This document shows positions 1 through 30,100 of a stretch of 44,454 nucleotides of DNA, piece by piece. A model generated the notes under the pieces. That model was given only the letters and a program-made list of their open reading frames with translations. It made no database searches and was not told the DNA's origin. This DNA is from Mesotaenium endlicherianum (Eukaryota). A program made the position numbers and the translations under genes. The stretch spans positions 779,602 to 824,055 of the forward strand of contig WELA01003606.1 in NCBI GenBank assembly GCA_009602735.1. The letters are read 5' to 3'. How positions within the stretch are numbered: position 1 is the stretch's first letter; every line of letters begins with the position of its first letter.

Positions 1-171
1 CCACTTCCCATCTCCTCCCTCCTTCAAAAGAGTGAGATGCTAGCTTGCATCAACGTCTTCATGGCTGCCTTTAGCAACTTATACATCATCCTTGTCTCTC
101 CTCTCTACTCTCTCTACACTCCTACAAGCATCACCGACCAAAGCTCCTCCTCCAAATGAAGCAACTAGGTA

Positions 172-183
172 GCTCCGATACCA
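172..183 (-). promoter_or_regulatory. Primer-binding site (tRNA-iMet type) of element B
   Basis: Minus strand TGGTATCGGAGC immediately inside the LTR end; the canonical plant PBS is TGGTATCAGAGC. Confidence 0.85.
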
Positions 184-185
184 TG

Positions 186-906
186 TGAAAGGGGGAAGGG
201 TGCGGGGAGTGCGCGCACACACACTCACGCACCCTCACCCGCAAGTGGAAGCGTGCACGAGGACCTTTCCTAGTTGCATACACAAGGTGGAGTGGCCTTG
301 TGGTATGCCACCCTTGCAAGAGTTAGAGGGCTACATGAGAGAGGAGTGGAAAAGAACTCACTTTATTAAGAAAAGTCATGTACAAGATAAGAAGGTTAGA
401 CTAGACGAACTAGACTAGACTCCCTCTACTTCTTTGTGCTTCCCATTTATGCTTTAACTCTAAGTGTCCTCTCTAGCAAAGTACCTCCAGAACCGTCTAC
501 TATGGTTCCTTCCATGTAGGTGACCTTGCCTAGTTGGACAAGCTAGCACACTCACACGCACGCAATCACACTCTAGAATATTCTACTACACAATCCACTA
601 ACTCCTCACGAAGTTTCTAGAAATTCCACGATCACTTTGGCACTCTACGTAATTGTACGTAGTTTGTGAAACCCTCATGTTTCAATGTCCTACTTTCTGG
701 ACTCCAACCGGAATTGTCGTCACTAGACCTGTCCTTGTCACTAAATTGAATCTGTGACACTAAACACTCACTAAAAACTCTCAAAATTCATAACTTTCTC
801 AATACTTGTCCAAATGACTTGAAATAAAGGCCAAAGTTCTTCCAAAATTACACTCTATGCATATAAAATGCTAGGAAGATACAAACTATACTTCGATAAC
901 CTTACA
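186..906 (-). mobile_element. 5' LTR of a minus-strand LTR retrotransposon (element B) that runs off the left edge; inserted into the gag of element A
   Basis: Minus strand begins TGTAAGG (906) and ends CCCCCTTTCA (186), the same termini style as the LTR at 3157-3900. It is followed after 2 nt by a PBS and truncates the element A gag frame at 907. Confidence 0.8.
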
Positions 907-3900: not shown

Positions 3901-3902
3901 TC

Positions 3903-3914
3903 TGGTATTGGAGT
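3903..3914 (+). promoter_or_regulatory. Degenerate PBS (tRNA-iMet type) of element C
   Basis: TGGTATTGGAGT 2 nt after the 5' LTR. Confidence 0.75.
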
Positions 3915-3937
3915 AGGGCTAGTTTGCATATTATATT

Positions 3938-4969: not shown

Positions 4970-6761
4970 GTCGTTATGGGGTGTCTACTGGCGTGAAGAC
5001 GAGAACTCACAAGGAGGTTACCCCCAGGAGCCTGCCGAGAAGCGAAAGACGAAATGTTGACAAGCCTACCATCGTGGAAGGAGTGGTCGACGGCAACAAG
5101 GCAAAGTGTATGGCCGACAGTGGCGCAAGTGCAAACTTTGTGCACAAGAAGCTGGTGAAAGAATGGCGAATCCCTGTGCAGAAGACAAAGAGGCAATTTT
5201 GGCAAATGGGCAGAGACTCAAGTGTGGTGCATCTACGGAAGCTATTCACGTGGAAGTAGCAAGGCACCGGAGTAAGGAAGTTGAGGAGCAGGCAGAGTTG
5301 GGTCACCATGAGGTGATATTGGGCCGACCATGGCTGAGAAAAGCCAACCCTCAAGTGCACTGGAGCACAGGACAAGTGAAAGTCCAAGGGCGTGATGGTC
5401 GAATGGAGATAGCAAAACAGGTGGAGGTAGATACGACCACAAGTAACTGTCTTCTGTCGGGCCCTGCAAGTTAAGAAGCTATGCAGGGCAAATCAGGTGA
5501 AGGAGATGTACCTTGTTTCGGTGGCCTTGGCCAGGTCATCAGATGTAGCAAGCGTGAATCCTAACAGCCTGGGCGAATGTACATCGCCGGAGGAGCAAGT
5601 AGTGGTGTCTGATCCCCTTGCTCAGAAGGAGCAGAGCCCAACTGCTCAAGAGAAGAAGCCTGCTGAGATGCGTGCCCAAATTAAGGCGCTGTTGGAGGAG
5701 TTCAAGTGCGTTTTTCCTGAGGAGCTACCTGCAGGATTACCTCCACAGAGAGCTATGGAGCACAAGATCAACTTGGAACCAGGGAGCAAGCCACCTGTGA
5801 GATCCGCCTATTCAAAATTGTTTGCAGAGTTGGATGAGTTGAAGAAGCAGCTGACAGAGTTATTGGAGAAGGGATTCATCCGACCCAGCGAGTCTCCATT
5901 TGCAGCGCCAGTCTTATTTGTGAAGAAGAAGAATGGCACTATGAGGATGTTTGTCAACTACCGGGCTCTCAACAAGGTCACCATCAAGAACAGGTACCCA
6001 CTTCCACGAGTGGACGAGTTAATTGACGTGCTTGTCGGGACGAAGTATTTCTCGAAAATTGATTTGAGGAGTGGCTATCACCAGGTACGGATTGTGGAAG
6101 GAGATGTTCAGAAGACTGCTTTCAGGACTCGCTATGGTTTATTCGAGTTTACAATTATGCCTTTTGGATTGACTAATGCACCTGCTACATTCATGGGACT
6201 CATAAATAGTATCTTCAGACCCTACTTCGACTAGCTTGTGGTGGTATTTTTGGACGATATCCTGATATATTCGAAAACCTTGGAAGAGCATGTGGAGCAT
6301 CTAAGAAAGGTGTTGGAGGTCTTGAGAGATCATAAGTTATATGGGAAGATGAGCAAGTGCGACTTCTGTCTCAAGGAGGTCGAGTTTCTTCGACACATAG
6401 TGGGAGCTGAAGGAGTCAAGGTGGAGCAAAAGAAGGTGCAAGCTGTCAGAGATTGGCCGGTACCTGCTGCTATTCATCAACTCAGGAGTTTCCTCGGCAC
6501 GGCAAATTATTATCGATGTTTCATTGAAGGATTTGCCAAGGTGTGTACACCGCTCACGGACATGTTGAAGAAGCAGGAGAAGTGGCTATAGGGTGACAAG
6601 GAGCAACAAGCATTTGAGAAGATTAAGGAGTTATTGACACAGGCACCTGTGTTGGCAATCGCCAGCCCAGAACTTCCTTTCACCATCATCACGGACGCAT
6701 CAAATTTTGCAGTGGGAGGCATTTTTCTCCAGGTTCAGGGCAAAGGATTGCAACCTGTGGC

Positions 6762-7502
6762 TGAAAGTGGCAGAGTGGCCTAGTGGAAGCGTAGTAACTC
6801 ACAAGGAAAGGAACTAGTTGCAATCATACTAAAGAGTGCAGCGGCGTATCACTAACAAGGCTTAGGAAAAATACTCAACATTTTGAGTGGCAAGAATTTG
6901 TTCACAAATGATGTAGAATAGAAGGCCTTGTCATTAGAAAGGCCTAGAACTTTACAGAAGTGAAAATTGATAAGAAACAAAGAAATTATGCCTATTTATA
7001 ATCTTCTGCCTAAGTGCTCCTCTCTAGGAGGAAGCTACGAATTTTTCTAAGTGTGTCAAATCGTCCCTTCCAGAATATTTGTGAGTAAGCCAGATTAGTC
7101 TCATTTGACGTGTCGGGCCGAATTGACGTTCATATACATGCATCGACATTACTAGAATATTCTATCTTAGACGCGCTAGGCTAAATCGAAACTTCTAGGT
7201 AAATCGACCTAGTCGGCACTCCGCGTCAGTCGAACTTACGTGAAGGTTCGAGTTCATTCTAACGGGCCAGATCGCTCCACGATGTCGGTCAATCCGACGA
7301 TCGCGCTGACAACAAATTAAAGACAGTCGTCAACCGACCTCAAAACTAATTAAACCTCAGAAATCCGTAACTCTCTCAATACTTGACCACATTCGATGAA
7401 CTTTATATCAGATGACAAAAAAAATGCACTCTACACGACTATACAATCAAAACATACTTTCATGAAACTCAAAAATGCACTTTATAAACCTATGACCTTA
7501 CA
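6762..7502 (-). mobile_element. Solo LTR of the element C family, inserted antisense in the RNase H of element C
   Basis: Reverse complement of the 3157-3900 LTR with exact TSD GTGGC at 6757-6761 and 7503-7507. Removing it restores QPVAYENRKL. Confidence 0.95.
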
Positions 7503-8172
7503 GTGGCATATGAGAACAGGAAGTTGAGTCCTGCGGAGCAAATCTATGCAGCACACGAGCGGGAGATGTTGGCTATTATCCGGGCTTTGAGGATTTGGCG
7601 ATGTTATGTGGACGGCCGGAAGGTGTTCATCAAGACCGACCACAAGAGCTTGGAGAAGTTTATGACGTAGGCAACATTGACACCAAGACAAGCAAGATGG
7701 ATGGAGTTTCTGCAACAGTTTAACCACAAGATTGAGTACTTATCTGGGAAGATCAACTCTACAGACGCTTTATCCAGGAGGTGTGACCTTGCAGCTGTCT
7801 CAGTCATATAGGAGAATATGGACTTTTAGGAAGAAGCTTAAGAGAGGTTATCAGGAGGATCCAGAATTTGCGGATGGTGGAACAGTTGAGGCCAACGCGA
7901 GTATGCAGAAGAAGGACGGCATATGGTATTATGGTGATTCCAACAGAGTGGTGGTACATGACATCAAGGAGCTACGAGACTTACTACTTGCGGAGCATCA
8001 TGATTGCTTATATGCTGGACATTTAGGAAGCGAGAAGACGGCAAGTGTGCTGAAGCGGAGACACTATTGGAGAAATATGAACAAGAACATCGAGGAGTGG
8101 ATCAGGAGTTGCGATGCGTGCCAGAAAAATAAGACACCAAATCAAAAGAAGGGAGGTACATTGCAGCCTCTG

Positions 8173-9429
8173 TGAAATAAATCTTGCTTATTTAAGATTA
8201 ATATATTTCATTTAAAGATATAAGATCAGAGATAGGTGGAAGCGTGTGAAATCAGGGAGCAATCTTCGCCCTTATAAGAATTCCGTTTACTCATCTACAC
8301 CTCTTGACTCACTTACCGTAGTGTGCCTTAGTTGCACACTAACACGAGGCACAAGTAAGAGGCGAGCTTGAGGACTTGAGCTTCTCCTTTAGAAACCCAC
8401 GGCCTCTTGCCTACCAGGCATGCAAGCATGTATAGCACATTCACAACATCAAGGGACTGAATAGCAAAGGCGCTCTCATTCAGATGACCATAATGTAGCT
8501 CAAACACATCTCACTGACTTAGGTGCAAACCATGGAATCTGTCCGCTGTGTGACCCCAAAATGTCAGAGGGCATAACTCTGTCAATACTACTTCAAATTG
8601 AGCAAACTTAACGGCAACGGATGCATCTTGACAAAACCTTTCCGAAAAGTCCTAGTTCGCTCCATTTGGAGCGCAAACGAAGCAGCCATGGCAATTTCCG
8701 TGAAGGCTGGTCATTAGAACGAACCCAAAAAGTGCACACATCACTTGCAAATAAAAATCCGACTGTAAAGCCTACTGTCCAGAATGAGGGACCACGAGAT
8801 CCCAGCCTGCTATGTACCTAGTGACCACCTGGTTGAACACGGCGCAAGGTGCGCCGTTTCGTGGAAAACCCGTTCAAGTTGGGACCCACGGATCTAGGTA
8901 TAACGACCATATTAATTGGTCGGTTGACTGAAGTCCTAACTGTTCAGTTGACTGACAACGGCTCCGCCTACCCAGGAGTTAACCACACGGGTAGGACATC
9001 GGTTTACCGAATCTCAGTCGACCTCTCGACTTTCGGTATACTACGGTCACATGTGCCAATCTACAAATAACAATCTAAATATATATGTATATCCTCAGCG
9101 TACTGAAGCTAAGTATATTGACTAATATCAAGCGAGCTTACTCTATGTCAACCCACTGATATTATACCCTATATATAAGTGATATATAAATCTCAGCAAA
9201 CTACACTATGATACAAACGTCATCCTGCTGACCTTTTCAACAAAGTCAGCAAACGACACTATGGTACAAAAGTCATCGTGCTGACCTTTTTGACAAAGTA
9301 AGTAAACTCGCATTACATCGACATACGTTCATTTAGATGAACTTGCACACGTGAGTATATAGACATAATACTTAATTAGTGTTATATATATATGCAATTA
9401 ATTGATAAATAATGAACTGATTCATTACA
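8173..9429. mobile_element. Probable solo LTR of a different family, inserted in the integrase
   Basis: TG...CA ends with short imperfect IR (TGAAATAAATC / GATTCATTACA) and near-TSD CTCTG/CCCTG. Removing it restores GTLQPLPIPEYPWEQIAMDF. No coding motif recognised inside. Confidence 0.8.
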
Positions 9430-10541
9430 CCCTGCCTATTCCAGAGTATCCTTGGGAGCAAATTGCTATGGACTTCATCACGTCGTTCCCAGTTAGTGGT
9501 CAAGGGCACGATGCAATTTAGATTGTATCTGATAGACTTAGCAAGATGGCTCACTTCATTTCCATGAAGAAGACTTGTACGACAACAGATGTGGCACGGC
9601 TATTCTTTGATCATATTTTCAGGCTACATGGGTTGCCGAAGGTGATTGTTTCAGATCGGGATCCAAGGTTTACTAGCAACTTCTGGCGGTCGTTGTTTAC
9701 TTCAATGGGGACCAAGCTGAGTATGAGCACTTCCTATCATCCTCAGACAGACGGGCAAAGTGAGAGGCTCAACAGAACTCTGCAAGAGGTGCTCAGAAGT
9801 TTCATTATGGAGGACCCTTCAGAGTGGGACAAGAAGTTGCCAGGGTTGGAATTTGCCTACAACAACAGTATGCAGGGATCAACCAAGCAGTCACCATTCA
9901 CTATGGTTTATGGGAGAGAAGTATGTCATCCAGGGAACATCTTGTTGGAGAAGGCCAAGGAGACTCAGGTTCCTACTACACAAGCGTTTATGGAGCAGAT
10001 GGCCAACACTTGGGATACGGCAAAGACGTGTGTTCGGAAGGCACAGGAGGAACAGGTCAAGCATGCCAACAAGCACAGGAGGGAAGTGACATTCCATGTG
10101 GGCAACAAAGCACTCTTGCCAACAGAGAACCTACCTCTCACAGGCAAGAGGAAACTGCGGGCACGGTTCACAGGTCCCTTTGTGGTGTTCTAGCAGGTTA
10201 ATCCAGTGACCTACAAGTTGGAACTTCCTTCAGTCTAGCGTATCCATGATATGTTCCATGTCAGTTGTTTGCGGCCATACATTGACCCAAATGAAGGACA
10301 TCCAGGACGACTACCTACACCGCTACCACCGGTCGAGATCGATAATGTATTGGAGTATGAAGTGGAGGCGATTGAAAACGATCGACGAGTCAAGCGAGGT
10401 CAACGATTTTTTCAACAGTATCTGATCAAGTGGAAAGGCTACCATGCGGATGACAACACTTAGGAGCCAAAGGCCAACTTGACTCAATGTAAGAGTAAGT
10501 TGAGACGTTATTTGCAGAATGCGTTGAGGACGTCGCATCTT

Positions 10542-10555
10542 GAGGAGGGGGATGA
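10542..10555 (+). other. Polypurine tract of element C
   Basis: GAGGAGGGGGATGA directly before the 3' LTR. Confidence 0.85.
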
Positions 10556-11285
10556 TGTTAGGTCATAGGTTTATAAAGTGCATTTTTGAGTTCCATAAAA
10601 GTATGTTTTGATTGTATATTATAGTAGAGTGCATTTTTGTTGTCATTATGATATAAAGTTCATCGAATTTGGTCAAGTATAAAGAGAGTTACGGATTTCT
10701 GAAGTTTAATTAGGTTTGAGATCGATTGACAACTGTCCTTAATTCGCGGTGAGCGCGACCGTCGGATTGACCGACAGCGTCAAGCGATCTGGCCCGTTAG
10801 AATGAACTCAAACCTTCACGTAAGTTCGGCTGACGCGGGGTGCCGACTAGGTCGATTTACCTAGAAGTTTCGGTTTAGCTAGCGCGTCTAAGATAAAATA
10901 TTCTAGTAATGTCGATGCATGTATGTGGACGTCAATTCGGCCCGACACGTCAGGTTAGACTGATCTGGCTTACTCACGAATATTCTAAAAGGGACGATTT
11001 GACAAACACTTAGGAAAATCCGTAGCTTCCTCCTAGGGAGGAGCACTTAGGCATAAAATTATAAATAGGCATAATTTCTTCATTTCTTATCAGTAATTTC
11101 TACGGGTTTGTAATGACAAGGCCTTTCATCCTACACCATTTGTGAGCAGTTTCTTGCCACTCAAAATGTCAAGTAATTTTCCTAAGCCTTGTTAGTGATA
11201 TGCCGCTGCACTCTTTAGTATGATTGCAACTAGTTCCTTTCCTCGTGAGTTACTACGCTTCCACTAGGGCACTCTGCCCCTTTCA
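10556..11285 (+). repeat. 3' LTR of element C
   Basis: TGTTAGGTC...GCCCCTTTCA followed by TSD GATTT. Confidence 0.95.
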
Positions 11286-13416: not shown

Positions 13417-15607
13417 ACAACTATTCAGAACGACGTCAGGAGTCAGGAGTCAGGAGTCAGGACTGGTCAGGACCCTCGACTTCTGGGCTAATCGGGTAAT
13501 ACCGACCAGAAAGGTCGAGAACACGGCAATTTTCAACAAGTCACGACTCACGACAATCTCAATTGGTCTCAGTGCATTGGCCGGCCTACATTCTTATTCG
13601 TGCGCTGTCTTTTAATACGCCGCCAAAAGTGGGTGCCTTTTTACTGGAGATTTGTAATGATCAGAAATATGAGTTTGTCGTGTCCTGGAGACGTGAAAAC
13701 CTGAGGATTTTTAACATGTTGAATCAGAATTCGAAACTCGTCAATTAGAAATGGTTGGATGTGGTTGGAAGTTGTTCACAGCGAGTAACTCCATGCAAAT
13801 GCTTCGTCTGCTGAACGTGAAGTTAGTGGATGTAAATGACTAGTCAATTGAAAATGCCTCGGTCACGGAATCTTGATTGCGTAGCAGAATGATTTAGTGT
13901 GCGCCCAGTGTAACTCCTTTCCAGGTCGTCAGCAGATCATTAAATAGTTTACGATGGTGACGAGACCCTCTTTTTCGTTCTTTGTCGTGTGCGTCATTCT
14001 CATGGCTGTGCACTCCATTTCCGGTGTGAGGATACAAGAAGCTGACCGTAGGTACCTGCCTTGATTCAAAAAAATATCATGTGTTGCATGAGTCCTATGT
14101 TCAATCTAGGAAGGCCTTGTTCCTCGTGTGGGAGCCCTTTACCGTACTGCATACAAGTCGCGCGAGCTGCGAAAGTGATTATATAACTCTATGTACTGTA
14201 TGCATCGTGCGTGATAATCTTTCGAAACTTGTATCATTCATATTACAGCCTGTTCCAAATTAAACACTGTTGCGCACCACATGCACTGTATTTGCCCTTC
14301 AAGCTCGTGCTCTTAAAACCACGGCATGTTGGTGCCTAAGCTTGCAAGATGTTGTTTGACTATTATTCTGAATTATGTGCTTACGTAGACAAGTGTGGTC
14401 CAAATGAATGCTCTTCTGTCAACCTAGGCCCGACCTGTGGTGCACAAATTGAGGTCAATCTTGACCTGGGGTGGGTCTAGTGGTCATGCACTCACGTACA
14501 TAATCAGGCCATTATTGCAGACTCTGCCCTCCTCAACCTGCGAAAAGGATTTCGAGACCAATCTGCCCTTAAGTCGTGGGACAATGTGGACTGCGATAAT
14601 ATTGAGGGTGTATATTGTAATGCCGCTGGACATGTGTATTACCTGTGAGTGCTTCCCATTTCCTTAAAAATTCATCTATTTTCTTCTCATGTTGTTTCAG
14701 TGGAAGCATAGGGGGTGGTGGGGGGTGCCCGGGGGGCGNNNNNNNNGGAAGGGGGTGCGGGGCGTGGGGGTCATATCTGTCCTGCCTGCTTGGTCCATCT
14801 AGCAATGAGTAACTCATCTTCGTTTCTGCTGGGCCTTCATACTTGCACTCTTCATCCAAAGCTGGACTCCAGTCACAGATATGTCCCTATTTCTGTCTCT
14901 CCCCCACCTCCAGTAGAAGGGGGCATGAGCCACGCAGTTGCGCCAGCACTCGTGGCTCTTACTCAGTACGGCCATGGTGGCTGCAAAGTGCCATGCACCT
15001 CTCTGGGCTGGGGTGGCATAACACCATAGTATCTTGCGAGCATGCAGGCGTAAAACATGTTGATTAACTTGCTATTCAACCTCAGCTTCCGGGTGGCGGG
15101 CATCTAGCACTCCCTTGTTTCCGGGAGCTTCTAAGAGACTCCTGTTATTTACAGACCTCCCTCCTCTGCTGTGGGAGAGGCTCTCCTGGCACGGATGCCT
15201 TCTCCGGTACTTTGGGGGGGGCGCTGGTCCCAGCAATCTGCAGCCTCACATCGCTCACCCACCTGTAAGCTTGCTGACCCTGGAAGATGTTTGATGCGAT
15301 GCATTGTCTGTCTTGCTGATGCTTAGTTCCCCAACCAACAGGTCAGAACAGCTGTACAGAATGCCGAAATTGCTGACAGCCATGACAGCCACGCGAGGAT
15401 GTGCTGGCGCTGAAGCCCCCCCCTCCTCGTTCTGATTTTCTTGCTGCAATCTGCTGGCGAGTTGCGACGATGTGCATTATAGCACGGAGAGGGGGGGCTC
15501 AAGGTGCTCTGGTCGAGACACGCTTATCATTGGCACAGAGGGCTCAGCTTTGCAGCATGGTGTACTCGCTGTTTGGGAATATATGTGCAAGTACTTCAGA
15601 TGTCATC

Positions 15608-16058
15608 ATACGCAAGGAGCTTGTTCTTCTCCCTCTTGTCGTTCTCTCTTTTCTCTTCTCCACTATTTCCTTGATTTCCTCCTTAACCTCCCTCTCCTCT
15701 TTCTTTTGGCAAGACGTATAACATGGTGTTTTGTCCCTCGTGTCTTGTCCATTCTGTCCCGGCAGACAGATAGTAGGCAGTGATCTCTCGGGAAGCATCC
15801 CTGGCTGCGTGGGGAACCTGTCCTCGCTGGAGTACCTGTGAGTTGCTCCGCCGCCAATGCCTATGCCTTCTAAGTTCTGTACCTCTGCCGCATGAGACAG
15901 CTCATCCAGTTCGAGCACACACTGCATTCTGCGCATACGCTGCTTTCTGCTCGGCTGTGGCTCTAGCCCGCCCCCTGAATGCTCTTTACTCGTTTCTGCA
16001 CTGCCACGTGGAACCTGTTCAATTGCCGTGATGCTTCCCCCTTGTATGTCCATTACAT
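15608..16058 (+). pseudogene. Decayed signal-peptide exon and LRR N-cap exon upstream of the LRR exons
   Basis: 15608-15715 reads (ATA)RKELVLLPLVVLSFLFSTISLISS...QD then gtataa. ~15894-16058 reads LIQFEHTLHSAHTLLSARLWL*PAP*MLFTRFCTATWNLFNCRDASPLYVHYI, which resembles the LRRNT consensus but has two stops and AT where a GT donor is expected. Confidence 0.45.
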
Positions 16059-16378
16059 ATGCTTCAAATTCTTAGCTACCAAGCCCAGACCCCGAAAGCT
16101 GAAATCAGAAACCGTAAGGGTTGTTGCAAATAACCATGAACCCTAGCTTACAGTGGCTCTATTTGATGCACATCCTTGTGGCCTGCATCATGCTGACATG
16201 AGCCTTGAGCAGATCCATTCATGGACCTCTCGGTGCTGATGGCGGCCATCTGTACCATGGCACAACTTCCCACTTTGCTGTACCGAGAGAGTGAATGTAA
16301 GGTTCTTGGCCTAGGGTGGGGAGTGAAGGGTTTTTATTTTCAATATCGCGGGCTTGTGATTACCGTTGCGATTTGCAG

Positions 16379-16450
16379 TAATCTTGGTGGTAACTACTTC
16401 AGCGGCCAGCTGCCGACGGGCCTGTCCCACCTGAAGAATTTGCAGATTCT
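16379..16450 (+). CDS. 72-nt plant-type LRR exon 1
   Basis: ttgcag|T AAT CTT...ATT CT|gtgggt encodes NLGGNYFSGQLPTGLSHLKNLQIL, matching LxxNxFSGxLPxxLxxLxxLxxL; phase 2-2. Confidence 0.8.
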
Positions 16451-16518
16451 GTGGGTGCCCTTCCTTCAAACCCCAACACCTTCCGCTGAGGTGTAATTTC
16501 CAAAGCTTGCACTCTGAG

Positions 16519-16590
16519 GTCCCTGCCTCCGAACAACTTTTCCGGACCCATCCCCGGCTGCTTCCAGGACCTGGCTGCGCTGCAATACTT
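16519..16590 (+). CDS. 72-nt plant-type LRR exon 2 (not in the ORF track)
   Basis: ctgag|G TCC CTG...TAC TT|gtaagc encodes SLPPNNFSGPIPGCFQDLAALQYL; phase 2-2; the acceptor is a weak GAG. Confidence 0.75.
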
Positions 16591-19040
16591 GTAAGCTCTT
16601 GAATCGCCGTCGGCAGGCTGCAGCTACACCTTCCATCTGCCTGTCTAAATGCCACACCCAGCGTAAACTTCAAGTTTAATGCCGCTAATACCCTGGCCCT
16701 GATGCACAGGTGGAGCCCGTGGAGTATTCTCCCAGGCAGCCAAAGTCTCCACTCCTTGCCCTGCATGCAGGCGACCTGACATGCTACCTCTGCTGTTCCA
16801 CGCTAGACCGTCCTGTACGGTGCATGGGTTATTTTGAACTGTGTGCTCTCCCGCATTGCCCATGCTCCAAGCTGCAGACAGAGGTCACGGTACACCAGGA
16901 CCGACACGAAGTCCACGTCATGCGCCGTTGGCGTCATTACTTGGCCGCCGTCACATGTGTACACGCAAACAGTGTCTGACAGGTCCAGTTCACGCAGGGT
17001 CCAGGCCAGGCGTAGTGGAGGTCACTCAAGGGTGCTGGTCACACAACGTCTAACGGTGTCATTGTCGGTGACATGCATGGTCAAAATGGATACAAGGTCA
17101 TACAAGGTCAGGTCAAGAGTCATATATGATTGTTCTGTCTGCGCAAGTTTGTGGCCTGCATCATCCTGTCATGACCTTTATGGTTCAGAGCAGATGCATG
17201 CATCACGCAGCATAATTTCCACGCAGGCACACAGCTCTTTCGAACACTATTTTTACTCTCAAGAGTTCTCCAGACAACTTCAAGAGCCACAATATTTTGC
17301 ACACGCTTTACATACATACTGTCGACAATATCCAACTCAACGCTGACTGAACCTGATTACAAATCAATGACGACTTGCATTTCTCTTTTTACTCGCTCAA
17401 AACACTCAAAAGTAGCTCAAAGCGAATGGAGTCGAGAGTTTGTACCTTGTTCTCTGTTATCAGTAGCTCTTTCAAATCATCAAATCAAACATCTATGCAC
17501 ACCATTGGAGCTTTAGTCTTGGAACTACCATGTTTTCACGTCTCACAGGCTTCAACTCTACACTTCAATCAAACACACACACTTTACACTTATGATACCA
17601 AACATCATTGCCTTTACTTACATGCTGTACTTGGTTTTTACCTAATGCAATGTAACTTTTACTTAGAATCACCGCTTCACCTTGAGGGCTAGCATATAGA
17701 GTTCAGGTCAGGCGTGGGTGCAGGTCATGTGAAAAGCTCTTAAAGTCAAAACTTTGGAAGATTTGGACTGACGGCGAGGTGGGTGTGTGCAGGCGTCTGT
17801 ATTCCAACAGCTTGAGCGGGCCGCTCCCGGCGGAGCTTTGCCTCCTGAAGAATCTAGAAGAGCTGTGAGTTCTTCTGAGAATTTGGCACTTTGGGGGCTT
17901 AGGAGTCGAGGTCGGGTGCTAGGGTGAACCCCTGCACGATGACAAATCTGGCCCTGGCAAGCTGATGTATTCTTTGGCCTGTTGCCTTTTCTCATAAAGA
18001 GAATAAACATCAGGGTTGGGCTTGGTATATATATGTGAAGAAACTTCATGCGTACAGACAAACAGGCATGTCAGCATGCCTGGAGGGGTGTCAGCTTAGG
18101 CTTGCCTTGCTTCTCAAACATGCATGCATGCCCCAGCCCTTGCCGCAACCTGTTTGTTCTGCCCTCTGCGGGGCAATTTGCCGAGAGAGTTCTGCTGCGC
18201 ACATGCAAAGACAATAGTCGGGCATACCTCTGCCCTCGTTGCGCACTATACTGGCGCCTTGCTTCAGTGGATAACAGTGTCTAGCACGCGGCACACGCGA
18301 GGGAGTCCTTGGCCCAAGCTGACGGGCTGCCCAACCCGTGGGCTTGTCTTCTCCGCTGAAGGGTTGTGCATCGAGAGTGCTCGTGCGCTGGTTGTCAGAA
18401 GTTTGCTGACAACGCCCAAAGTGTCAGGTGTGAGCTCTCCCTGTGAGAGCTGTCTGGATCCTGGAGCAAAGCCAGCAGGCCGTCCAGGCCCCCCGTTTGC
18501 CAGCTGGCGAGCTTGCTGACTGTCGGGTGCCTGGATCCGCTGCCTGCCTCATCTCGCTTATTGGCTGCTCTTTTATTCTTTGTGCCGGGAGGGGGACAGC
18601 TCAGTCATTGAAAACCAGCTCTCAGGGAGCATCCCCAGCTGCATGAGCGCCTTTCCCGCCCTCCAGGAACAACTGTGAATGTCTGAGCGCCCACCTGTCC
18701 TCCTATCCCTCTGCTTGTGGCGCTGCAACTCTGCGCCCTGGGGCCCACTCTTATGCCCAGCAGAGCCGTGAGTCCCCTACACCACTAATGCCTCTTTAGG
18801 CTACCTTGTTGGCCAATGTCCTCTCTTTCTGTCCGCGCAACAGTTTCCCGTCCTTCTTTTCAACTACTGCCGGGTCAGCTCTTTTCCCTTTCACCTCTCT
18901 CTCCCCGCTGGACTACATGCAGGGCTCTGTGTCTCAAGGCTCCTCCGAGATCCTCCACTGCCCGCCAGCCGCCTCAAGTGCCAAACTTCTCAGCACGTTC
19001 CGCAATCCTCTGGTGCTTCTCATCGCTGGTCTCTGGGCAG

Positions 19041-19306
19041 GCATCTGAGGGACAACTACTTCACGGGCTCTTTTTGTCCCGGCGCTTACAACTATGATCG
19101 CTCCTTAAATTGCTTCTCTGGCAAGTGTTCCAATGGCCAGAGAAGCGCCAAGGAGTGCGCCGCCTTTTGCGGCGCCACGTCAGCACAGGGCCCCTGTGGG
19201 GGCCACGGGCGGTGCTTCCTCAGTGGCACACAGCCCACGTGCACCTGCGACCCAGGATACGAGAGCGCACAGGTGGCGGGTGTTGCCAGCTGTACGCGCT
19301 CCTCAG
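19041..19306 (+). CDS. Exon with last LRR, Cys-rich cap and EGF-like module
   Basis: ggcag|G then open frame HLRDNYFTGSFCPG...LNCFSGKCSNGQRSAKECAAFCG...PCGGHGRCFLSGTQPTCTCDPGY...CTRSS, then G|gtgcca. Phase 2 in and phase 1 out, compatible with both neighbours. Confidence 0.75.
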
Positions 19307-19929
19307 GTGCCACACCCCCACTCCCTCCCTTCTTCAACGGTGCAGTACACTTCATGAATGTGCTGTGTGTAAGGGTCGGCGACTGCAGCTCCGGCGCAAC
19401 TCTGCAGCTGTTGGGTATTTTGATGATGAAGTCGGAGGCCTGGCTGTACGCGAGCCCCAGGTCACAGGTGCCGTTCTGGTGTTGAATCCATTTTTCATTG
19501 GATTGGGGACGTACGCAGTATTTGTCAGGGAACATAGGGTAGAGACTTGCTAGCCCAAAGGAAAGCTGTGTTTGCATATGTTTGCGTGTTTGTGTCAACG
19601 TTTTGGGGGTGTGGCCCTTTTCGTGCGCGCACGCCTGCCTCAAGTGCCGCTTGCGAAGCAGAGAAGAAGTGTAATGGTGGAGTTACTTTGCAGCTGTGTC
19701 CTGACTGGAGGAACTGTTGGAGGCTGTCTAACGCGGGCAGGGATGTGCATTCCTGGGGCACTGCTCAGAAGGCGCACAGCCATCCAATGCTTGCGCGCTC
19801 ATTTCGCGCCACTGACCTTTCCTTGCGCGACCTCCCGTTGTGCGACCTGTGCTATTGGCGCTTGCATCACCCTGCTTACTCTCTGGTGCTCTTTTTCTGC
19901 GTGCATGCATGTAACGCCATGTCCCTCAG

Positions 19930-23013
<3,084 letters not shown>

Positions 23014-23353
23014 TGAGCTTTGCAGTGCGTGCATTACACACCACATGCACCAGGTTGTAGAAACTTCTCTGTCGTGCAGCCCTCTGTCCTACAGGAACAG
23101 AGGGGCAGTCCTTCCAATATCTTCCTCCTCCGAGATGTATGCAAATCTTGATGGCTCTTTGCCCGTTCAAGTCATTTCGTCAGCAGGAAACGAAGCAGCA
23201 AGTTGACGTGGTGACTTTGCTGTGTGCGCCAGCTGGCTACGTCTGGCAGCAGCTGTGGCCTGCATTTGGACGCTCATTTTTCGCACTCTGTGATCTCGCC
23301 CCCACCCACTTTACCCATCCTTGAACCTCAATCATTTGAGTGTCCAAGTGCAG

Positions 23354-24558
23354 GGTACAACCCGTGTGGAAAGAAAGCGATGAACCCGTGCGGAGGCGGG
23401 AGGTGCTTTCCCAGGGGGACCAGCAACGAGTGTGACTGCCCCCCGCAGTTTGTGGCGGTCACCAACTTGGACGGCTCCCAGTCCTGCGCCCCTCGTAAGG
23501 CTCTCTCTCACTTCTTGGCCCGGTCGTTGCATCAATACTTGTGCTGGCGTTTCTCCCATGCTGCGGTGCTGTTGAGAAGGCTTCGAGTGCCTCGTAGATC
23601 CACTGTTGGTCGAATTTCTTGTGGGTTCCCTGCAGGCTGCAAGTGTGGCTCAATGCATGTAGATCTAGAACTGCAGCAACAACTGTACGAATCAGTGCGC
23701 CATGTGGCGTGTTCTTTTGACTCTCCATTTAGACCACAGTGACAAGCACGTTTGCATGATGGACGCGCATGTACAGCAGCAGCAGAGCTCCTACCTGAGC
23801 CCAGCAAGCAAGCACGGATCGGGCCTTACGGGCCGATGCTGACGATGCTGGCTGGGCGCCATGCGGAAGACACGGAGCAGACACGAACGCGGCAGCCCTG
23901 GCTCCAGCTCTTGCAGAGAGGCTTCTCTAATATTGGGTTTTGTGTTGTAGAGCGGTCTTCCTTCTGCCCAGTGAGGGTGCGCGCGTGCGTCCAACGCACG
24001 CAGAAGGCTCGCTTGCGCAGTGTGGACCCGGGTGTGTATGCAGTGCATCAGTCTGCAGTGTGGTGTGGTGTCTGTGTTCTGGTGTGCACGCGCTTTCAAC
24101 AAATCAAGCCGTGTAGGTGCAGCTGCTGCAGGGCTTCAGGGCCTAGGGGCTTAGGGCTGAGGGGCGTTGTGCTTGCGACAGAAGGCCAGGAGTGCGTCAC
24201 CCGGCTGGCCTCGGGTGCGACGCTTGCTCTCCCTAGCAGGAGGAGGGCTGTAGGTGATCTGACCTTGCGCTTGCACGATAGCCGCGCACGCCTTATCATG
24301 TCAGTTACAGGCGTGAACGTGTTCCTCCAACTAGAAGCGGCAGCTCTCAGCACCTTCCAACCGTGAGGAGACGTTTGTTCGTGCAATTTTTCTGTCACGC
24401 CTGTCCCGCCACCACAGAGAAGGTGTGCCGGTTCTTCCTGTACAACCCGTGCAACGTGGGCACGTGCGTGGACGACGGCAGGGGCGCGTACGCGTGCATC
24501 TGCCCCGCGGGCTTCTACGGCGGCTTCCGCCTCGACTCCTCCCCCACCTGCGTCCCTG
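23354..24558 (+). CDS. Two EGF-like domain exons (23354-23494, 24418-24558) of the same gene
   Basis: Both are 141-nt phase 1-1 exons with six Cys: NPCGKKAMNPCGGGRCFPRGTSNECDCPPQF...SCAP and VCRFFLYNPCNVGTCVDDGRGAYACICPAGF...TCVP. Confidence 0.88.
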
Positions 24559-25111
24559 GTGCGCCCTCCCCTTCCCTTGCACCTTCTGCCGGGCAGAAAC
24601 CAAAGGGAGATTGTGAGCTGCGCTCTTAGCTGCAGCAGGAGTTGCACTGAGCGGCTGTCGTAGCCAAGCGTGTCCCTTTGGCCTGTCAGTGCCGGCTCCC
24701 TCTGCCGGCCCTGCTCTGGCTCTCCGGGGCCTGTGGGGCGTACACGCAGAGAACATTCTGAGCCGCCAGCTGGCGTGTCAGATGCATCGACTTGAGTGCT
24801 CAAGTGCGTCATACTCGCGCCTCGCAAACTGGTAACTCTTTGTCCCATCAGCGGCACAGGCCGCATTGGGCTCAAGTTGAATCGTTCCCGAGACTCTGGC
24901 CTTCATCCAGTGCCAAGTGGCGCCTGTGCGCGCACTTACATCCTGGGGCAGTCCGCTTTCCAGCGGGCTCCCTCCCAAGTCTCGTGCTGTTTGCGGCGTG
25001 CACAGACCACTGCGTACAGCTGTCGTGCGCAGCGGTCGACGCACTCCCTCGCTGCGCACGCTTTGCAACCAACTGCGCGCTGGCCGTGCCTGCCTGCGTG
25101 CGTGTGCGCAG

Positions 25112-27133
25112 CGCCGCAAGGCACGGGCACGCAGAAGTACACCGTGCAGGCCGCGGAGTCGTGCTACCTCATCCACACGGCGTTCCGCCTCAAGCTGCCG
25201 CAGTTCCTGGCGCAGAACAAGGTGCGCTCATGAACTTCTCGCAACCTCGCCGCGCCCATTCTTATGTGCAACCCATGGCACCAGCAATGGAACTCCCGCT
25301 TGCATGCATGTATTTACCCTTTTCTTTCTCTTCAAGATGGTGCGTTGAAGGCACAAGGGTGTAGTATATCTACCTCGCTGTTCATCGACGGACACCTTGT
25401 GGTTAATCAGATCCTACATTCCGAACGGCCCTCGATGTGGGCTGCCCTTGCGTTTGCAATTTGAAGGGTGCCACGTTTGCTCATATGGGTGGGTATGCGG
25501 GCCATTGCAAATGCGCAGGGCCTCAAGTGCGATGCGCTGCGAGCGGGTACTGTCGTGAACGTGACACCTGTCAAGGCCAACCTGGGCTGCACGCTGCTCT
25601 ACTCCCTCAACCAGGCAAGCGTGCATCCACCACTCGCTTTTTTGAGCTTGATGAGTGCTACCGTCCCTCTTGAGAGACCTGTGCAAGACTTTCGTCTGCC
25701 GTCGTACCTTTCTAACTCGTTGCTCTTCAGGACAAGGATAGACTTAATTTACCGCACGCACGTCAGCAGAGCTTTGACCCTTGATTGCGTGTAAGCTTGA
25801 TGACAAAGTAATATAGAAAGTGAAGGCGAAACATTTAGGCAAGACCCATCGTCTCGTCTCTCAAGGACCAAGATGAGCGTTTGCAATGATGGCGGTGTGC
25901 CCTTCCCCCATCTGTAATTTCGGCCCTTTGTGGTCGTCACTCGTGAAAAGGCAACGAGTTGCTGTTCTTGTGGCGAGGGAGTGCCAGGGGGACACGTGCG
26001 CGTCGGTGAAGGCGCTCTTCAGCCTGAAGGTGGACCTCCTCGCCATCAACCCCGGCATCGACTGCTCGTTCCTCGTGCCCGGGCAGCAGGTGGCCGCCTC
26101 ACCTCCCCCGTAAAGCCACACCTGCATGGCCCTCCTTGCATGGTGTCGAGCGCTTGTTCTGGTAGATTCATTGGAATACTTCTCCAGCCTAGATTTCTCG
26201 ACAAGTCCGTGCAGGAACTTCGACGAGAGTCCAGATGAAGTTGGTATACTGCCAAAAACAGTTGGAGGTTAAGTAGAATATATTTTCCCGAAGTTCCATC
26301 TTCCACCACGAAATGTATCACGGCAAAGCCTGCCCCCCCCTCCCCCCCTCTCTCTCTCTCTCTCTCTGCCTCGTCCTCTCCTTTCCTCCTCCCTTCCCCT
26401 CGCTTTCTCCGTCTCTTCTGCTCTCCATCTTTATGTGCGTTGAGTGTGAGGGGAAGGACGTAGGGAGGGGGATGAATGACATATTTGCTTTGTTTGTGAC
26501 TCTGGATTTTTTCCCTTTCCTGGTCCATGATGGCGGGTTGCTGCACGACTCAGGTATGCGTCAGGTCGTCTGCAAAGAACCTGGCGGACCTGCCATTGTG
26601 CACGCAGCAGAAGCCCGTGGAAGCTCTGGACACGTGCCCCAAGCTGTGGGCCAAGTACCACCTCACTCCTGCGCGTTTCTTCGAGCTCAACCCTGGCATC
26701 TACTGTCAGAACCTCGTTCCCAAGCAAGGTTTCTCTGTCCCGGGCCAGCAGGTACTCCAGCACCTTCTGTTTTTCATCACCACTAGCCGGAACATCTTCT
26801 GCATGGGGGCTCATTGGGGAGTAGAGCTCGTGTTGTACACAAAGCCGCGAGACTTGGAAATGGAGTGATGCATCATTTGCTCGTGTGGTGCCCTGATGGT
26901 TTACATTTGCCTCACGATAATGATTTGATATTCTCTCGCAGGTTTGTGTGGCGGCGGCCCCCGACGGCCGTCCTCGGTGCAAGAAGGCGTACAAGCTGCA
27001 GCGTGGGGACTCGTGCGCCTCCATCATATACCACAAGTGCAAGAGGAGCGTGGCTTTGTTCAGAAAACTCAATAGTGGGCTCGATTGCCAAACAGGATCG
27101 TTGTTTATTCAGCAGATTGTATGTGTTCCATAA
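25112..27133 (+). CDS. Four LysM domains, C-terminus of the same gene; exons 25112-25221, 25519-25614, 25988-26089, 26554-26751, 26942-27133
   Basis: YTVQAAESCYLI...QNKGLKCDALRAGTVVNV; YSLNQGDTCASV...INPGIDCSFLVPGQQVCV; VEALDTCPKL...LNPGIYCQNL...GQQVCV; YKLQRGDSCASI...LNSGLDC...QQIVCVP*. All junctions are in phase; one GC donor at 25615. Confidence 0.88.
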
Positions 27134-30100
27134 TGGATTGTTCTTATCAGGGAGGTTTTTACGCAAATATTCTGGTTTGAGGTTGTCCGAGCTGAACTTT
27201 CAGGCATCGGTCTGTCACCACTAGTCTTTTGCCAAAACTGATTTTAATTGTTTTTGTCAGAAGTACTGCTAAAATGCTCTCGCTTTGAGGTGGTCATCGT
27301 TTCGGTACGTAGATTACATTCCACATTCACCACGCCTTCACTATTCATTCATTCTAGTTATTACTTTCACAAGCGGTTTATAGTATGATATCCTCAATTG
27401 GTCTGAAATGTCTGTCTTTGGCGTTGCAAGATCGTGGTTGCTGGCTATAGAGTCAAATTATAGCAAGACTTGCGACGTAGTTCTGACCATGTCAGTGCGT
27501 ATTACCATCGATTATGGAGAATAGTGCTGTTTCTAACATTCAAATTTGGAGTACATTTGACGATGGATGCACACGTTTGAAGTGGTGCAGTTAGCTTGGA
27601 TGTGCGGTGATAGGAGCATAGGACCAGGATAAGGGTAGAGCCGGTACGAACTAGGAGGCGCACCTACTGGACCAGGAGGAGCCACCCATCGACGGGGAGT
27701 GGAGCAGGGGAGCATTGGTAGAGCGTTTGGTGGGTGCAAAGGGGCAATCAATCAGTGGGGAGGGAAAGCTGTGAGACAAGGAATGGATTGTTGCAGGCCT
27801 CAGGCCTCAGAATATTTTGCAGGAAGTTGGCCGCCTTTGGAGCAGCTTGGATGGCATGGTCGAGCCGAGCAAAGGTGTTATCGCACTGGCATAGTTGGGC
27901 CGAGCAAGGGAAAGTGTTATTGGACTGAGCAGTATTGGGGTTGACCACGGGGGGATGACTAACGGGGACTGGCCTCCACACCAAGTAGCGAGCCGGTGTT
28001 GAAGTTGCGAAACTGAAGTAGAATCAGAACTAGAGACAGAAGCCCAACAAATTATTTTATTTCTTTGTTCAATGCTTTCAATATCATAAAAATCAACTAT
28101 TAGAATCTGCACTATTGAGCAGTAACATGAAAAGCAAAGAAGCAAATACCGCACCCAGTTTTGCATTCATCTTACTAAAATAGCTTATATTGCTAGCATA
28201 ACTTGTTTTGATGCGAAAATCATTGCTTTTTGAACACAACATTGATGTGGATTGCAAATTCCTTTTCTCATAAAAATATAGCTTATTCTTGCTACAAACT
28301 ATTGCTGCAAGTCATAACCGCATCATAAGTCTCTTAAGGAAGTGGGAAAGATGTGCACAACTTTGCGTGCGTGCCCTCGATATACACAAGCACCCAATGA
28401 CCATATTCTGATGGATTGGGCATGTGGTGCTTTGAACTAGAGCCCATCTGGTCGCCTCATTGTGCGAAATCAACACAAAAGAAGAAACACCTAACTCTCC
28501 TCAGCCCTGAAATAGCTGTATTCAAAACATCTCCGATACAACGCCCCAAGAGATTCTTGCAAGTGCTCCCACCCCACCGGCGCACAAAACGGTAAATTGT
28601 TGATACATATTCCCAGCACAAGAACAACAAACTAGACGAGGGTTTTTCCCTTCTTAAAAATAGTTGAAACATATCTCACGTGTACAAGAGCAAGAGCTCA
28701 TGCATGCAGGGCTTGCACGCCAGGGTTAGCTTAACGTGCACGCTCATCAAAGAAGCATACTTAGAGGCACGCATGCACAAGGCAGGCCACGATACGCTCT
28801 CTGCCGTTCAAAACAAATCGGGGAGTGGTCCTCATTTTCAAGTTGCAGCTCTCAACGGCCCTCATTCTTGGACCAAAGAGCACTTTGGAAAAGACAAACG
28901 AGCAAGAATGCATTGCTCTTGGGACAACCACACGAATTATTTAGTCATTTGATTATTTGAGTATGTGAGCATTCAAATAGTTGGTTATTTTGTCCTTTAT
29001 TCATGGATGACTTGATCAGAATCCTGGAGCCGTAAGTAACACATTGTATTGACATGCATACATGCATGTGCGCATGTATTGACATATGTATTCATTTATA
29101 GTGCACCTATGTACGACGCGTGATGAATGATTTCATCTCTCAAGCGATTAGAAGTAGAACACATCAAGGCTCACTCAGCGCGTCGGGCGGCATCCAGAGC
29201 CCAAGCCCTGCATGTAGACTGGCACCATTCCAACATTGTGATGGGAGGGACAGGCTAGTATATATGTTCTTTACACTCATCGATCACATCGAGCAAGCAC
29301 GGTCTTAACAACATGCCTCATACGCCCGATTGTTTATGCCCATTATAATTAACAACTATACATGAAAGACTTGCACTCCGGGTCGGCATTGCGATGCCGC
29401 CTGAGTGCACGCATGCATGCACTTTTTTATTGGGGGTGGGGGAAAGGGGGGAGGANNNNNNNNNNNNNNNNNNNNNNNNNNNNNNNNNNNNNNNNNNNNN
29501 NNNNNNNNNNNNNNNNNNNNNNNNNNNNNNNNNNNNNNNNNNNNNNNNNNNNNNNNNNNNNNNNNNNNNNNNNNNNNNNNNNNNNNNNNNNNNNNNNNNN
29601 NNNNNNNNNNNNNNNNNNNNNNNNNNNNNNNNNNNNNNNNNNNNNNNNNNNNNNNNNNNNNNNNNNNNNNNNNNNNNNNNNNNNNNNNNNNNNNNNNNNN
29701 NNNNNNNNNNNNNNNNNNNNNNNNNNNNNNNNNNNNNNNNNNNNNNNNNNNNNNNNNNNNNNNNNNNNNNNNNNNNNNNNNNNNNNNNNNNNNNNNNNNN
29801 NNNNNNNNNNNNNNNNNNNNNNNNNNNNNNNNNNNNNNNNNNNNNNNNNNNNNNNNNNNNNNNNNNNNNNNNNNNNNNNNNNNNNNNNNNNNNNNNNNNN
29901 NNNNNNNNNNNNNNNNNNNNNNNNNNNNNNNNNNNNNNNNNNNNNNNNNNNNNNNNNNNNNNNNNNNNNNNNNNNNNNNNNNNNNNNNNNNNNNNNNNNN
30001 NNNNNNNNGCATGAGCCGGACTTGAGAGGCGGGAGGGGGGCATTTGACGGGAGCACGGAGGCAGAAGGGGGGGGGGGCAAGAGAGGGAAGAGGGGGAGGA

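What the first reader, a model, noticed from the sequence alone, without database searches (positions are those of the whole stretch)
16379..27133. Mosaic LRR-EGF-papain-EGF2-LysM4 protein: candidate pattern-recognition-coupled protease
Seen: 14 exons that join in phase give LRRs, a Cys-rich/EGF module, a Pro/Lys-rich linker, a C1A protease with intact oxyanion Gln and Cys/His/Asn, two EGFs and four LysMs. Known: LysM binds GlcNAc polymers (chitin, peptidoglycan), LRRs and LysMs are the ectodomains of plant immune receptors, and typical plant papains carry only an I29 prodomain with or without granulin. Inference: an extracellular protease with no transmembrane or kinase domain that docks onto fungal or bacterial walls and cleaves there, combining sensor and effector in one chain. 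I know of no characterised protein with this architecture, though unannotated relatives may exist in algal genomes.
Basis: partly seen in the sequence, partly recalled or inferred. Interest (0 to 1): 0.9.

Follow-up and report, generated by a model that had tools for sequence, protein, structure and literature searches.

The report
Algal protease with swappable recognition modules
This is a 20-exon gene of a conjugating green alga that joins leucine-rich repeats, a papain-type protease and four LysM sugar-binding domains in one reading frame; it is one weakly expressed copy of a large family that I could not find described, whose members likely are secreted in a self-blocked form and would then dock on fungal or bacterial walls and cut proteins there.

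Summary
The architecture is real and longer than reported. Twenty exons (13954-27133) join without a stop into 964 aa: signal peptide, LRRNT, LRRs, Cys-rich/EGF, Pro/Lys linker, a ~40-aa pro-segment, C1A protease (Q430/C436/H582/N602), two EGFs, four LysMs; no transmembrane or kinase part. It is not a one-off: 157 of 352 proteins retrieved share the protease-EGF-LysM core, named ones from Mesotaenium, Closterium, Spirogloea and Netrium. The slot in front of the protease holds LRRs, a legume lectin or hevein repeats, and 35 of 123 members have Cys-to-Ser. RNA reads join protease, EGF and LysM exons, but mostly come from paralogs. This copy lacks a normal exon-3 acceptor and has an N-marked join between its halves, so it may be damaged or chimeric. 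An AlphaFold model of a paralog puts the pro-segment and the LRRs where the cathepsin propeptide sits, so the LRRs lie on the pro side and would be released or act as a lock. C1A+LysM fusions are already catalogued in Chlamydomonas, so this is a new variant, not a new kind. No binding or activity was tested.

The parts
13954..14047 (+).
   Evidence: Only strong hydrophobic stretch, aa 1-28; aligns to paralog P0004 N-terminus; RNA depth
14521..14644 (+). Exon 2: LRR N-terminal cap (LRRNT_2)
   Evidence: Pfam PF08263 21.2 bits; donor 14644 used in 4 reads
15178..15264 (+). Exon 3: first LRR; 5' end uncertain (AC instead of AG at the 72-nt position; in-frame GAG acceptor assumed)
   Evidence: 4 reads splice instead to 15048, which gives a stop at aa 78
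15766..18674 (+). Exons 4-8: five phase-2 LRR exons (15766-15837, 16379-16450, 16519-16590, 17793-17864, 18600-18674; 72, 72, 72, 72, 75 nt)
   Evidence: tblastn to paralog LRRs; ~50-55% identity to paralogs
19041..19306 (+). Exon 9: last LRR strand, Cys-rich cap and EGF-like module
   Evidence: Pfam EGF 22.4 bits
19930..20117 (+). Exon 10, 5' part: Pro/Lys-rich extensin-like linker; holds one N (20006) and a second in-frame acceptor (20023)
20118..20234 (+). Predicted short propeptide (about 40 aa) with Gly-Leu at 20127-20132
   Evidence: Paralog models align here to procathepsin K and propapain pro-regions; Gly-hydrophobic motif in 53 of 61 rows vs 26.7 shuffled; no sequence-level match
20235..22942 (+). 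Mature C1A papain-like domain (end of exon 10 to 20298; 20742-20992; 21830-21973; 22726-22942). Gln 20286-88, Cys 20747-49, His 22771-73, Asn 22831-33
   Evidence: Pfam PF00112; model; fold of paralogs Z 27-32 to papain-family structures
23354..24558 (+). Exons 14-15: two EGF-like modules (23354-23494, 24418-24558)
   Evidence: Pfam; RNA joints 22942-23354, 23494-24418, 24558-25112
25112..27133 (+). Exons 16-20: four Cys-containing LysM domains and stop codon (25112-25221, 25519-25614 with GC donor, 25988-26089, 26554-26751, 26942-27133)
   Evidence: Pfam LysM; local profile finds four; all four introns seen as RNA joints

Best explanation
The gene encodes a predicted secreted papain-type protease that likely starts out self-blocked by a short propeptide and, once freed from its N-terminal LRR half, would bind chitin or peptidoglycan through its four LysM domains and cut proteins on microbial surfaces as a defence enzyme. 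Steps: (shown) one open frame with signal peptide, LRRs, EGF, Pro/Lys linker, pro-segment, intact Gln/Cys/His/Asn protease, two EGFs, four LysMs; (shown for the family) protease-to-LysM exons are one mRNA; (predicted) the ~40-aa pro-segment runs along the path of the cathepsin propeptide and the LRR solenoid sits where the I29 cap sits; (inferred) the extensin-like linker holds the zymogen in the algal wall or mucilage, the variable N-terminal module gives target or trigger specificity, and cleavage near the basic residues before the Gly-Leu motif frees protease-EGF2-LysM4; (inferred) the target is a GlcNAc polymer of fungi or bacteria. The window's own copy is a minor, possibly damaged member of this family.
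For: Frame and residues. RNA joints from protease through LysM4 on the + strand. Transcript-assembled relatives carry the whole core in one ORF: Netrium P0132 with three hevein chitin-binding domains, P0235 with a legume lectin. Closest solved LysMs: chitinase A 5BUM and 4PXV, then Ecp6 4B8V and LytE 8I2E. LRR fold matches plant receptor ectodomains, Z about 35. LRRs diverge faster than the rest (49-55% vs 86-95% identity to nearest paralogs). Pro-region placement: P0005 model aligns from residue 17 to procathepsin K 70P (Z 27.5, rmsd 2.6, 227 aligned); P0008 model aligns 152..663 to 40P..215 (Z 32.3, rmsd 2.3, 254 aligned), pTM 0.66. Purifying selection signal.
Against: No binding, activity, secretion or induction data. 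35 of 123 members have Ser for the catalytic Cys, 4 of 14 Mesotaenium-named ones, so proteolysis is not essential to every member. The pro-segment has no sequence-level match to solved propeptides and low confidence in the small model (pLDDT 54-58 at residues 21-40). LRR docking rests on aligned ranges of one model; repeat-number variation also lowers LRR identity. No listed RNA joint spans exons 8-9-10 (10 joints were not shown). This copy: 0.4-2.6% of reads at five sites, an unproductive splice in 4 reads, an N-marked join at 20006. A pheromone-induced C1A in Volvox points to a possible non-defence role.
Confidence: 0.5

Rival explanations
1. The family works on the alga's own wall, mucilage or mating partner (conjugation, cell separation), with LysM and lectin modules binding self glycans.
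For: Named carriers are all conjugating algae but one; extensin-like linker; a Volvox C1A protease is induced by the sex pheromone (passage in PMC2474614); paralogs are expressed in eight public libraries whose conditions I could not see.
Against: LysM relatives are chitinase-type and the Netrium member adds hevein domains; that zygnematophyte walls are mainly cellulose and pectin is recalled, not tested.
Confidence: 0.2
2. The protease domain serves mainly as bait or clamp: the protein traps microbial protease inhibitors or substrates, or soaks up chitin fragments, as a soluble decoy or co-receptor in the manner of tomato Rcr3 with Cf-2.
For: Cys-to-Ser in 35 of 123 members while His and Asn stay in 142 of 143; read ends that match the Cys-to-Ser paralog P0011 by eye (table 7); catalytically inactive Rcr3 still triggers Cf-2 (PMC7382257 abstract, figure legend and section headings).
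Against: 80 of 117 fully covered members, this one included, keep all four catalytic residues; no signalling domain in the chain and no kinase motif in 145 members.
Confidence: 0.17
3. Whatever the family does, this particular locus is a decaying duplicate or an assembly join of two paralog copies and makes little or no full-length protein (independent of the family-level explanations).
For: No AG at the 72-nt exon-3 position, splice to 15048 gives a stop at aa 78; second GAG acceptor at 16519; N at 20006 with a diverged duplicate of the acceptor; low own-allele share; LTR retrotransposon remains just upstream.
Against: No stop or frameshift in 964 codons; differences mostly synonymous; joint 23494-24418 with the window's letters in 8 reads; in-frame acceptors exist at 15136 and 15178 and the exon is skippable in frame; reads may come from another strain or allele.
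Confidence: 0.35
4. The LRR-EGF exons and the protease-LysM exons are two genes joined only on paper.
For: No listed RNA joint across exons 8-10, and the N at 20006 lies at that border.
Against: 39 retrieved proteins have LRRs before the core, from three named genera; exon 9 ends in phase 1 and both exon-10 acceptors keep the frame; the 3' half has no signal peptide or start of its own, the 5' half no stop.
Confidence: 0.07

Closest known systems
Chlorophyte C1A-LysM proteins (Chlamydomonas 'Peptidase C1A/LysM(3x)' and variants; PMC2728734, PMC6362431 suppl. Table 3); Volvox pheromone/wound-induced C1A protease (Amon et al. 1998, PMC144025)
   Same: Papain domain followed by tandem LysMs in an alga. 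The Volvox protein is a pheromone-induced C1A (passage in PMC2474614); its extensin linker and three chitin-binding repeats are recalled, the paper was not held.
   Different: None of the five catalogued C1A architectures has LRRs or an EGF pair between protease and LysMs; the table holds no zygnematophyte. Homology of the fusion was not tested: no named chlorophyte carrier came up.
Plant papain-like cysteine proteases (MEROPS C1A: EP-B2, actinidin, RD21-type)
   Same: Fold, catalytic Gln/Cys/His/Asn, signal peptide.
   Different: No I29/ERFNIN prodomain in this protein or its near paralogs, no granulin; a ~40-aa predicted propeptide, in length like that of procathepsin X (1DEU); EGF2-LysM4 tail.
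Plant LRR receptor kinases/proteins and LysM receptors; tomato Cf-2 with Rcr3
   Same: Plant-type LRRNT+LRR solenoid and LysM modules; an LRR paired with a secreted papain, as in Cf-2/Rcr3 (PMC7382257).
   Different: No TM or kinase; LRR and protease in one chain; LysMs are of the Cys-bridged chitinase-A type.
Fern and horsetail chitinase A LysM domains (4PXV, 5BUM; species recalled) and Bacillus LytE (8I2E)
   Same: LysM modules appended to a hydrolase to bring it to a GlcNAc polymer.
   Different: The catalytic domain here is a C1A protease, not a glycoside hydrolase or a peptidoglycan endopeptidase.
LRR-extensins (LRX; features recalled)
   Same: Signal peptide, LRR, Cys-rich part, Pro-rich segment in that order.
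   Different: The Pro-rich part is short and is followed by protease, EGF and LysM domains.

Membership tests
Peptidase C1A (papain family) | Peptidase_C1 profile match and papain fold | tested here: met
   PF00112 65.3 and 62.5 bits on two exons; paralog models Z 27-32, rmsd 1.2-2.3 to papain-family chains
Peptidase C1A (papain family) | Catalytic Cys, His, Asn and oxyanion Gln | tested here: met
   Q430, C436, H582, N602 in the 964-aa model
Peptidase C1A (papain family) | Proteolytic activity, E-64/DCG-04 reactivity | not testable with these tools
   Needs protein
Cathepsin L-like / RD21-type plant PLCP | I29 prodomain with ERFNIN motif, optional granulin | tested here: not met
   No I29 or granulin hit on exon 10 or on P0002/3/4/8; ERFNIN pattern in 0 of 145 members; only the Netrium member has a sub-threshold I29 hit, 22.9 vs 24.4 bits
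LysM domain proteins | LysM profile match and two-helix core | tested here: met
   Two exons above the Pfam cut-off, one below, one repeat split by an intron; four by local profile; helix pairs in the paralog model
LysM domain proteins | Binding to chitin or peptidoglycan | not testable with these tools
   Only similarity to chitinase-A LysMs
Plant LRR/LysM surface receptors (RLK, RLP) | Plant-type LRR ectodomain with LRRNT cap | tested here: met
Plant LRR/LysM surface receptors (RLK, RLP) | Transmembrane helix with or without kinase | tested here: not met
   Hydropathy gives only aa 1-28 and a weak internal protease helix; chain ends after LysM4; no HRD kinase motif in 145 members. GPI signal not tested with a predictor
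Chlorophyte C1A-LysM proteins | C1A domain followed by tandem LysMs | tested here: met
Chlorophyte C1A-LysM proteins | Common descent of the fusion | tested here: inconclusive
   No named chlorophyte carrier among hits, so none could be put in the tree
LRR-extensin (LRX) | Chain ends in a long extensin domain (recalled) | tested here: not met
   Pro-rich part is 64 aa or less and internal

The most novel reading that the evidence does not exclude
Probability: 0.2. Interest if true: 0.88.

Novelty: new variant of a known kind. Interest (0 to 1): 0.6.

Why it matters
How the algal sisters of land plants deal with fungi and bacteria is little known. This family puts three modules of land-plant extracellular immunity (LRR, LysM, papain protease) into one secreted-type chain, varies the front module among LRR, legume lectin and hevein, is expanded in several zygnematophyte genera, and includes many Cys-to-Ser forms. 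It gives concrete, testable candidates for a pre-terrestrial extracellular defence, and a possible natural example of a protease whose prodomain cap was replaced by a recognition domain. The individual locus matters less than the family.

Tried and rejected
No whole genome is held for this window, so paralog DNA and copy number could not be read. Complex prediction of LRR half against protease half was not available, so LRR docking has no controlled test. The ESM Atlas gave no answer. The look-up of sequencing runs listed no RNA holder on record; that blank is not used. Amon et al. 1998 was not held. Pro at the fifth residue after the catalytic Cys looked like a lesion, but 13 other members share it: rejected as a sign of decay. 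The papain-domain tree (quick method, 156 rows, fragments under 190 aa and three near-duplicates left out) puts the window in a starred 9-row set whose other members are all Mesotaenium models, nearest P0003 (92%), but deep branches are open, so a single origin of the family is not shown; some rows labelled plain there are truncated members. Rhizoctonia P0083 (LysMs before the protease, EF hands) has another order and was set aside. The Leptophrys transcript P0080 may be from algal prey (inference, untested). Earlier findings of this scan: none by sequence or full word set; the eight listed are prokaryotic and do not bear on this. Literature searches without a description of this family: 0 papers; 0; listings seen; passages checked in PMC6027541, PMC11289646, PMC12820192, PMC10505561, PMC6912462, PMC3919710, PMC11822879 had none. 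Subscription papers (among them the original Mesotaenium, Spirogloea, Penium and Closterium genome papers) and unseen supplements may mention it.
Full report
Observation. The region is an intron-rich eukaryotic gene on the + strand. Joining exons by coordinate gives 20 exons from 13954 to 27133 and 964 aa with no internal stop. Single exons match Peptidase_C1 (65.3, 62.5 bits), EGF (22.4, 32.3; middle one 10.9, below cut-off) and LysM (25.5, 22.4; one at 16.8 below cut-off; the first LysM is split by an intron); single 24-aa LRR exons are too short to score, 1 of 6 giving a weak hit. The catalytic set is Q430, C436, H582, N602. The only strong hydrophobic stretch is aa 1-28. The order is signal peptide, LRRNT, six LRR exons, Cys-rich cap and EGF, Pro/Lys linker, pro-segment, protease, two EGFs, four LysMs.

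Blemishes of this copy. Exon 3 has AC where a 72-nt LRR exon needs AG; in-frame alternatives exist at 15178 (GAG) and 15136 (AAG) but were not seen in RNA, while 4 reads of run X7 splice 14644 to 15048, which stops at aa 78. Exon 6 has a GAG acceptor; the other 17 acceptors of the model are CAG. One N at 20006 stands between two 82-nt copies (82% alike) that each carry the exon-10 acceptor, both in frame: a local duplication or a join of two paralog copies, exactly between the LRR half and the protease half.

Family. The protease exon's nearest proteins are Mesotaenium endlicherianum gene models at 74-93% identity, so the window likely comes from Mesotaenium or a close relative. P0008 has LRR, EGF, protease, EGF and LysM in one model. 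With local profiles seeded on the window and iterated on the retrieved set, 157 of 352 proteins have protease, EGF and LysM in that order: 72 Closterium (eight strain labels, so redundant), 11 Spirogloea (7 assigned by id prefix), 10 Mesotaenium, 3 Netrium isoforms, 1 Leptophrys, 60 with no name seen; 39 also have two or more LRRs in front (23 Closterium, 3 Mesotaenium, 1 Spirogloea, 12 unnamed). Pfam confirmed the calls on the members sampled. The front slot varies: LRR; LRR plus legume lectin; legume lectin (P0104, P0235); three hevein domains behind a weak I29 (Netrium P0132); a weak ricin-B hit (P0141, E 0.036). Against nearest paralogs the window's LRRs are 49-55% identical (P0004, P0008), the protease, EGF pair and LysMs 86-95%. 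At the catalytic Cys column 83 of 123 filled rows have Cys and 35 Ser; 80 of 117 rows covering all four positions are intact.

RNA. Eight public runs of the coded organism A were laid on 13800-27400 (at 96%, 33 at 99%). Stranded runs put the RNA on the + strand. Joints match the model from protease through both EGFs to all four LysM introns, GC donor included, and exon 11 to 12. No listed joint spans exons 8-9-10 (10 joints not shown). Most reads are from paralogs or another allele: at five diagnostic sites only 1 of 268, 1 of 130, 4 of 155, 2 of 152 and 5 of 308 reads lack the other letter (from; other tallied sites 5-19%). The joint 23494-24418 with the window's own letters has 8 reads against 134 with the paralog letters. 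Read by eye, loose read ends match P0002, P0008 and the Cys-to-Ser paralog P0011. Of 43 listed coding differences 30 are synonymous, against 24% expected (p 3e-10; only the best-supported 46 rows were used, 110 rows were not shown), which confirms the frame and points to purifying selection. Transcript-assembled relatives (P0132, P0235) hold front module, protease, EGFs and LysMs in one ORF; no LRR-bearing member was shown to come from a transcript.

Structure and mechanism. AlphaFold2 on paralog P0008 (79 rows) gave pLDDT 86.5, pTM 0.66; the LRRs match plant receptor ectodomains (MIK2, Z 34.9, rmsd 3.2, 318 aligned) and the protease papain-family enzymes. There is no I29 or ERFNIN, but a conserved ~40-aa segment precedes the mature domain. 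In the P0005 model it aligns from residue 17 to procathepsin K 70P, propapain 79 and procathepsin X 6P; that this part of a cathepsin propeptide crosses the active-site cleft is recalled. A Gly-hydrophobic pair lies 26-45 aa before the mature start in 53 of 61 rows where that start could be located, against 26.7 +/- 3.6 in shuffles (rows are related). In the full model the match to proenzymes starts inside the LRRs (152..663 to 40P..215 of procathepsin K; 151..665 to pro-triticain), which suggests that the solenoid sits where the I29 cap sits. This is one model read through aligned ranges; the pro-segment shows no sequence-level match to solved propeptides and is of low confidence in the small model. 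The LysMs are of the Cys-bridged kind and nearest to chitinase A LysMs 5BUM (E 8e-11) and 4PXV, then Ecp6 and LytE. Best reading: a secreted zymogen whose LRR half belongs to the pro-region, and whose mature protease-EGF2-LysM4 part docks on GlcNAc polymers of microbes (0.5). Rivals: own wall or mating (0.2), bait or decoy (0.17), two genes (0.07); separately, this copy may be damaged or chimeric (0.35).

Known relatives and novelty. Zhang et al. 2009 (PMC2728734, passages) note peptidase_C1+LysM in Chlamydomonas. Van Holle and Van Damme 2019 (PMC6362431, passages and supplementary Table 3 rows) list five C1A-LysM architectures, all in Chlamydomonas, none with LRR, in 21 species without a zygnematophyte. 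PMC2474614 (passages) cites a pheromone-induced Volvox C1A; the original was not held and its domain layout is recalled. PMC7382257 (abstract, first legend, headings) describes Rcr3 with Cf-2 and activation by subtilases. Ten searches of the held library, five of them aimed at this family, found no description of it. It is therefore a new variant of a known kind: the pairing is known, the lineage-wide family with an exchangeable front module, EGF2-LysM4 tail, short propeptide and frequent Cys-to-Ser forms was not found in print. Interest 0.6.

Noticed in passing
window ~3800-10600 (+) and 975-1634 (-): Ty3/gypsy-type LTR retrotransposon remains upstream of the gene: RVT_1 at 5431-6231, integrase core at 9522-10190, a separate gag/Ty3 capsid frame on the minus strand.
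   Followed up: partly
window ~40770 to ~36400 (-), possibly further exons to ~30200: An EXORDIUM/Phi_1 gene (PF04674, 61 bits on 39546-39959) with further exons after the Phi_1 part that I did not identify; PMC10505561 notes 12 EXL homologues in Mesotaenium.
   Followed up: partly
window 14759-15191: The 3' part of intron 2 is transcribed on the + strand at 99% identity (X1 contig; depth 5-12), mostly with another letter at 15055, and runs on into a different exon 3: a near-identical copy with a retained intron or an internal start.
   Followed up: partly
P0011, P0009, P0086, P0096 and many Closterium proteins: Cys-to-Ser forms with His and Asn kept (35 of 123); read ends suggest P0011 is expressed.
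   Followed up: partly
P0132 (Netrium): Keeps a weak I29 and has three hevein domains inserted between it and the protease, which suggests that front modules were inserted into the pro-region.
   Followed up: partly
P0047, P0051 (Closterium); P0072, P0125, P0127: Some members carry C-terminal extras: EF hands, or a fifth LysM and a Cys-rich tail that looks Kazal-like by eye.
   Followed up: no
P0083 (Rhizoctonia solani): A fungal LysM4-EF-hand-C1 protein with the reverse order, likely an independent fusion.
   Followed up: no
P0010 (unnamed, 1350 aa): About 22 tandem Cys-type LysM repeats and nothing else.
   Followed up: no
window 25614/25615: GC-AG intron, seen as an RNA joint; JGI models of paralogs P0002, P0003 and P0008 lack the 14 residues before this donor.
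   Followed up: partly
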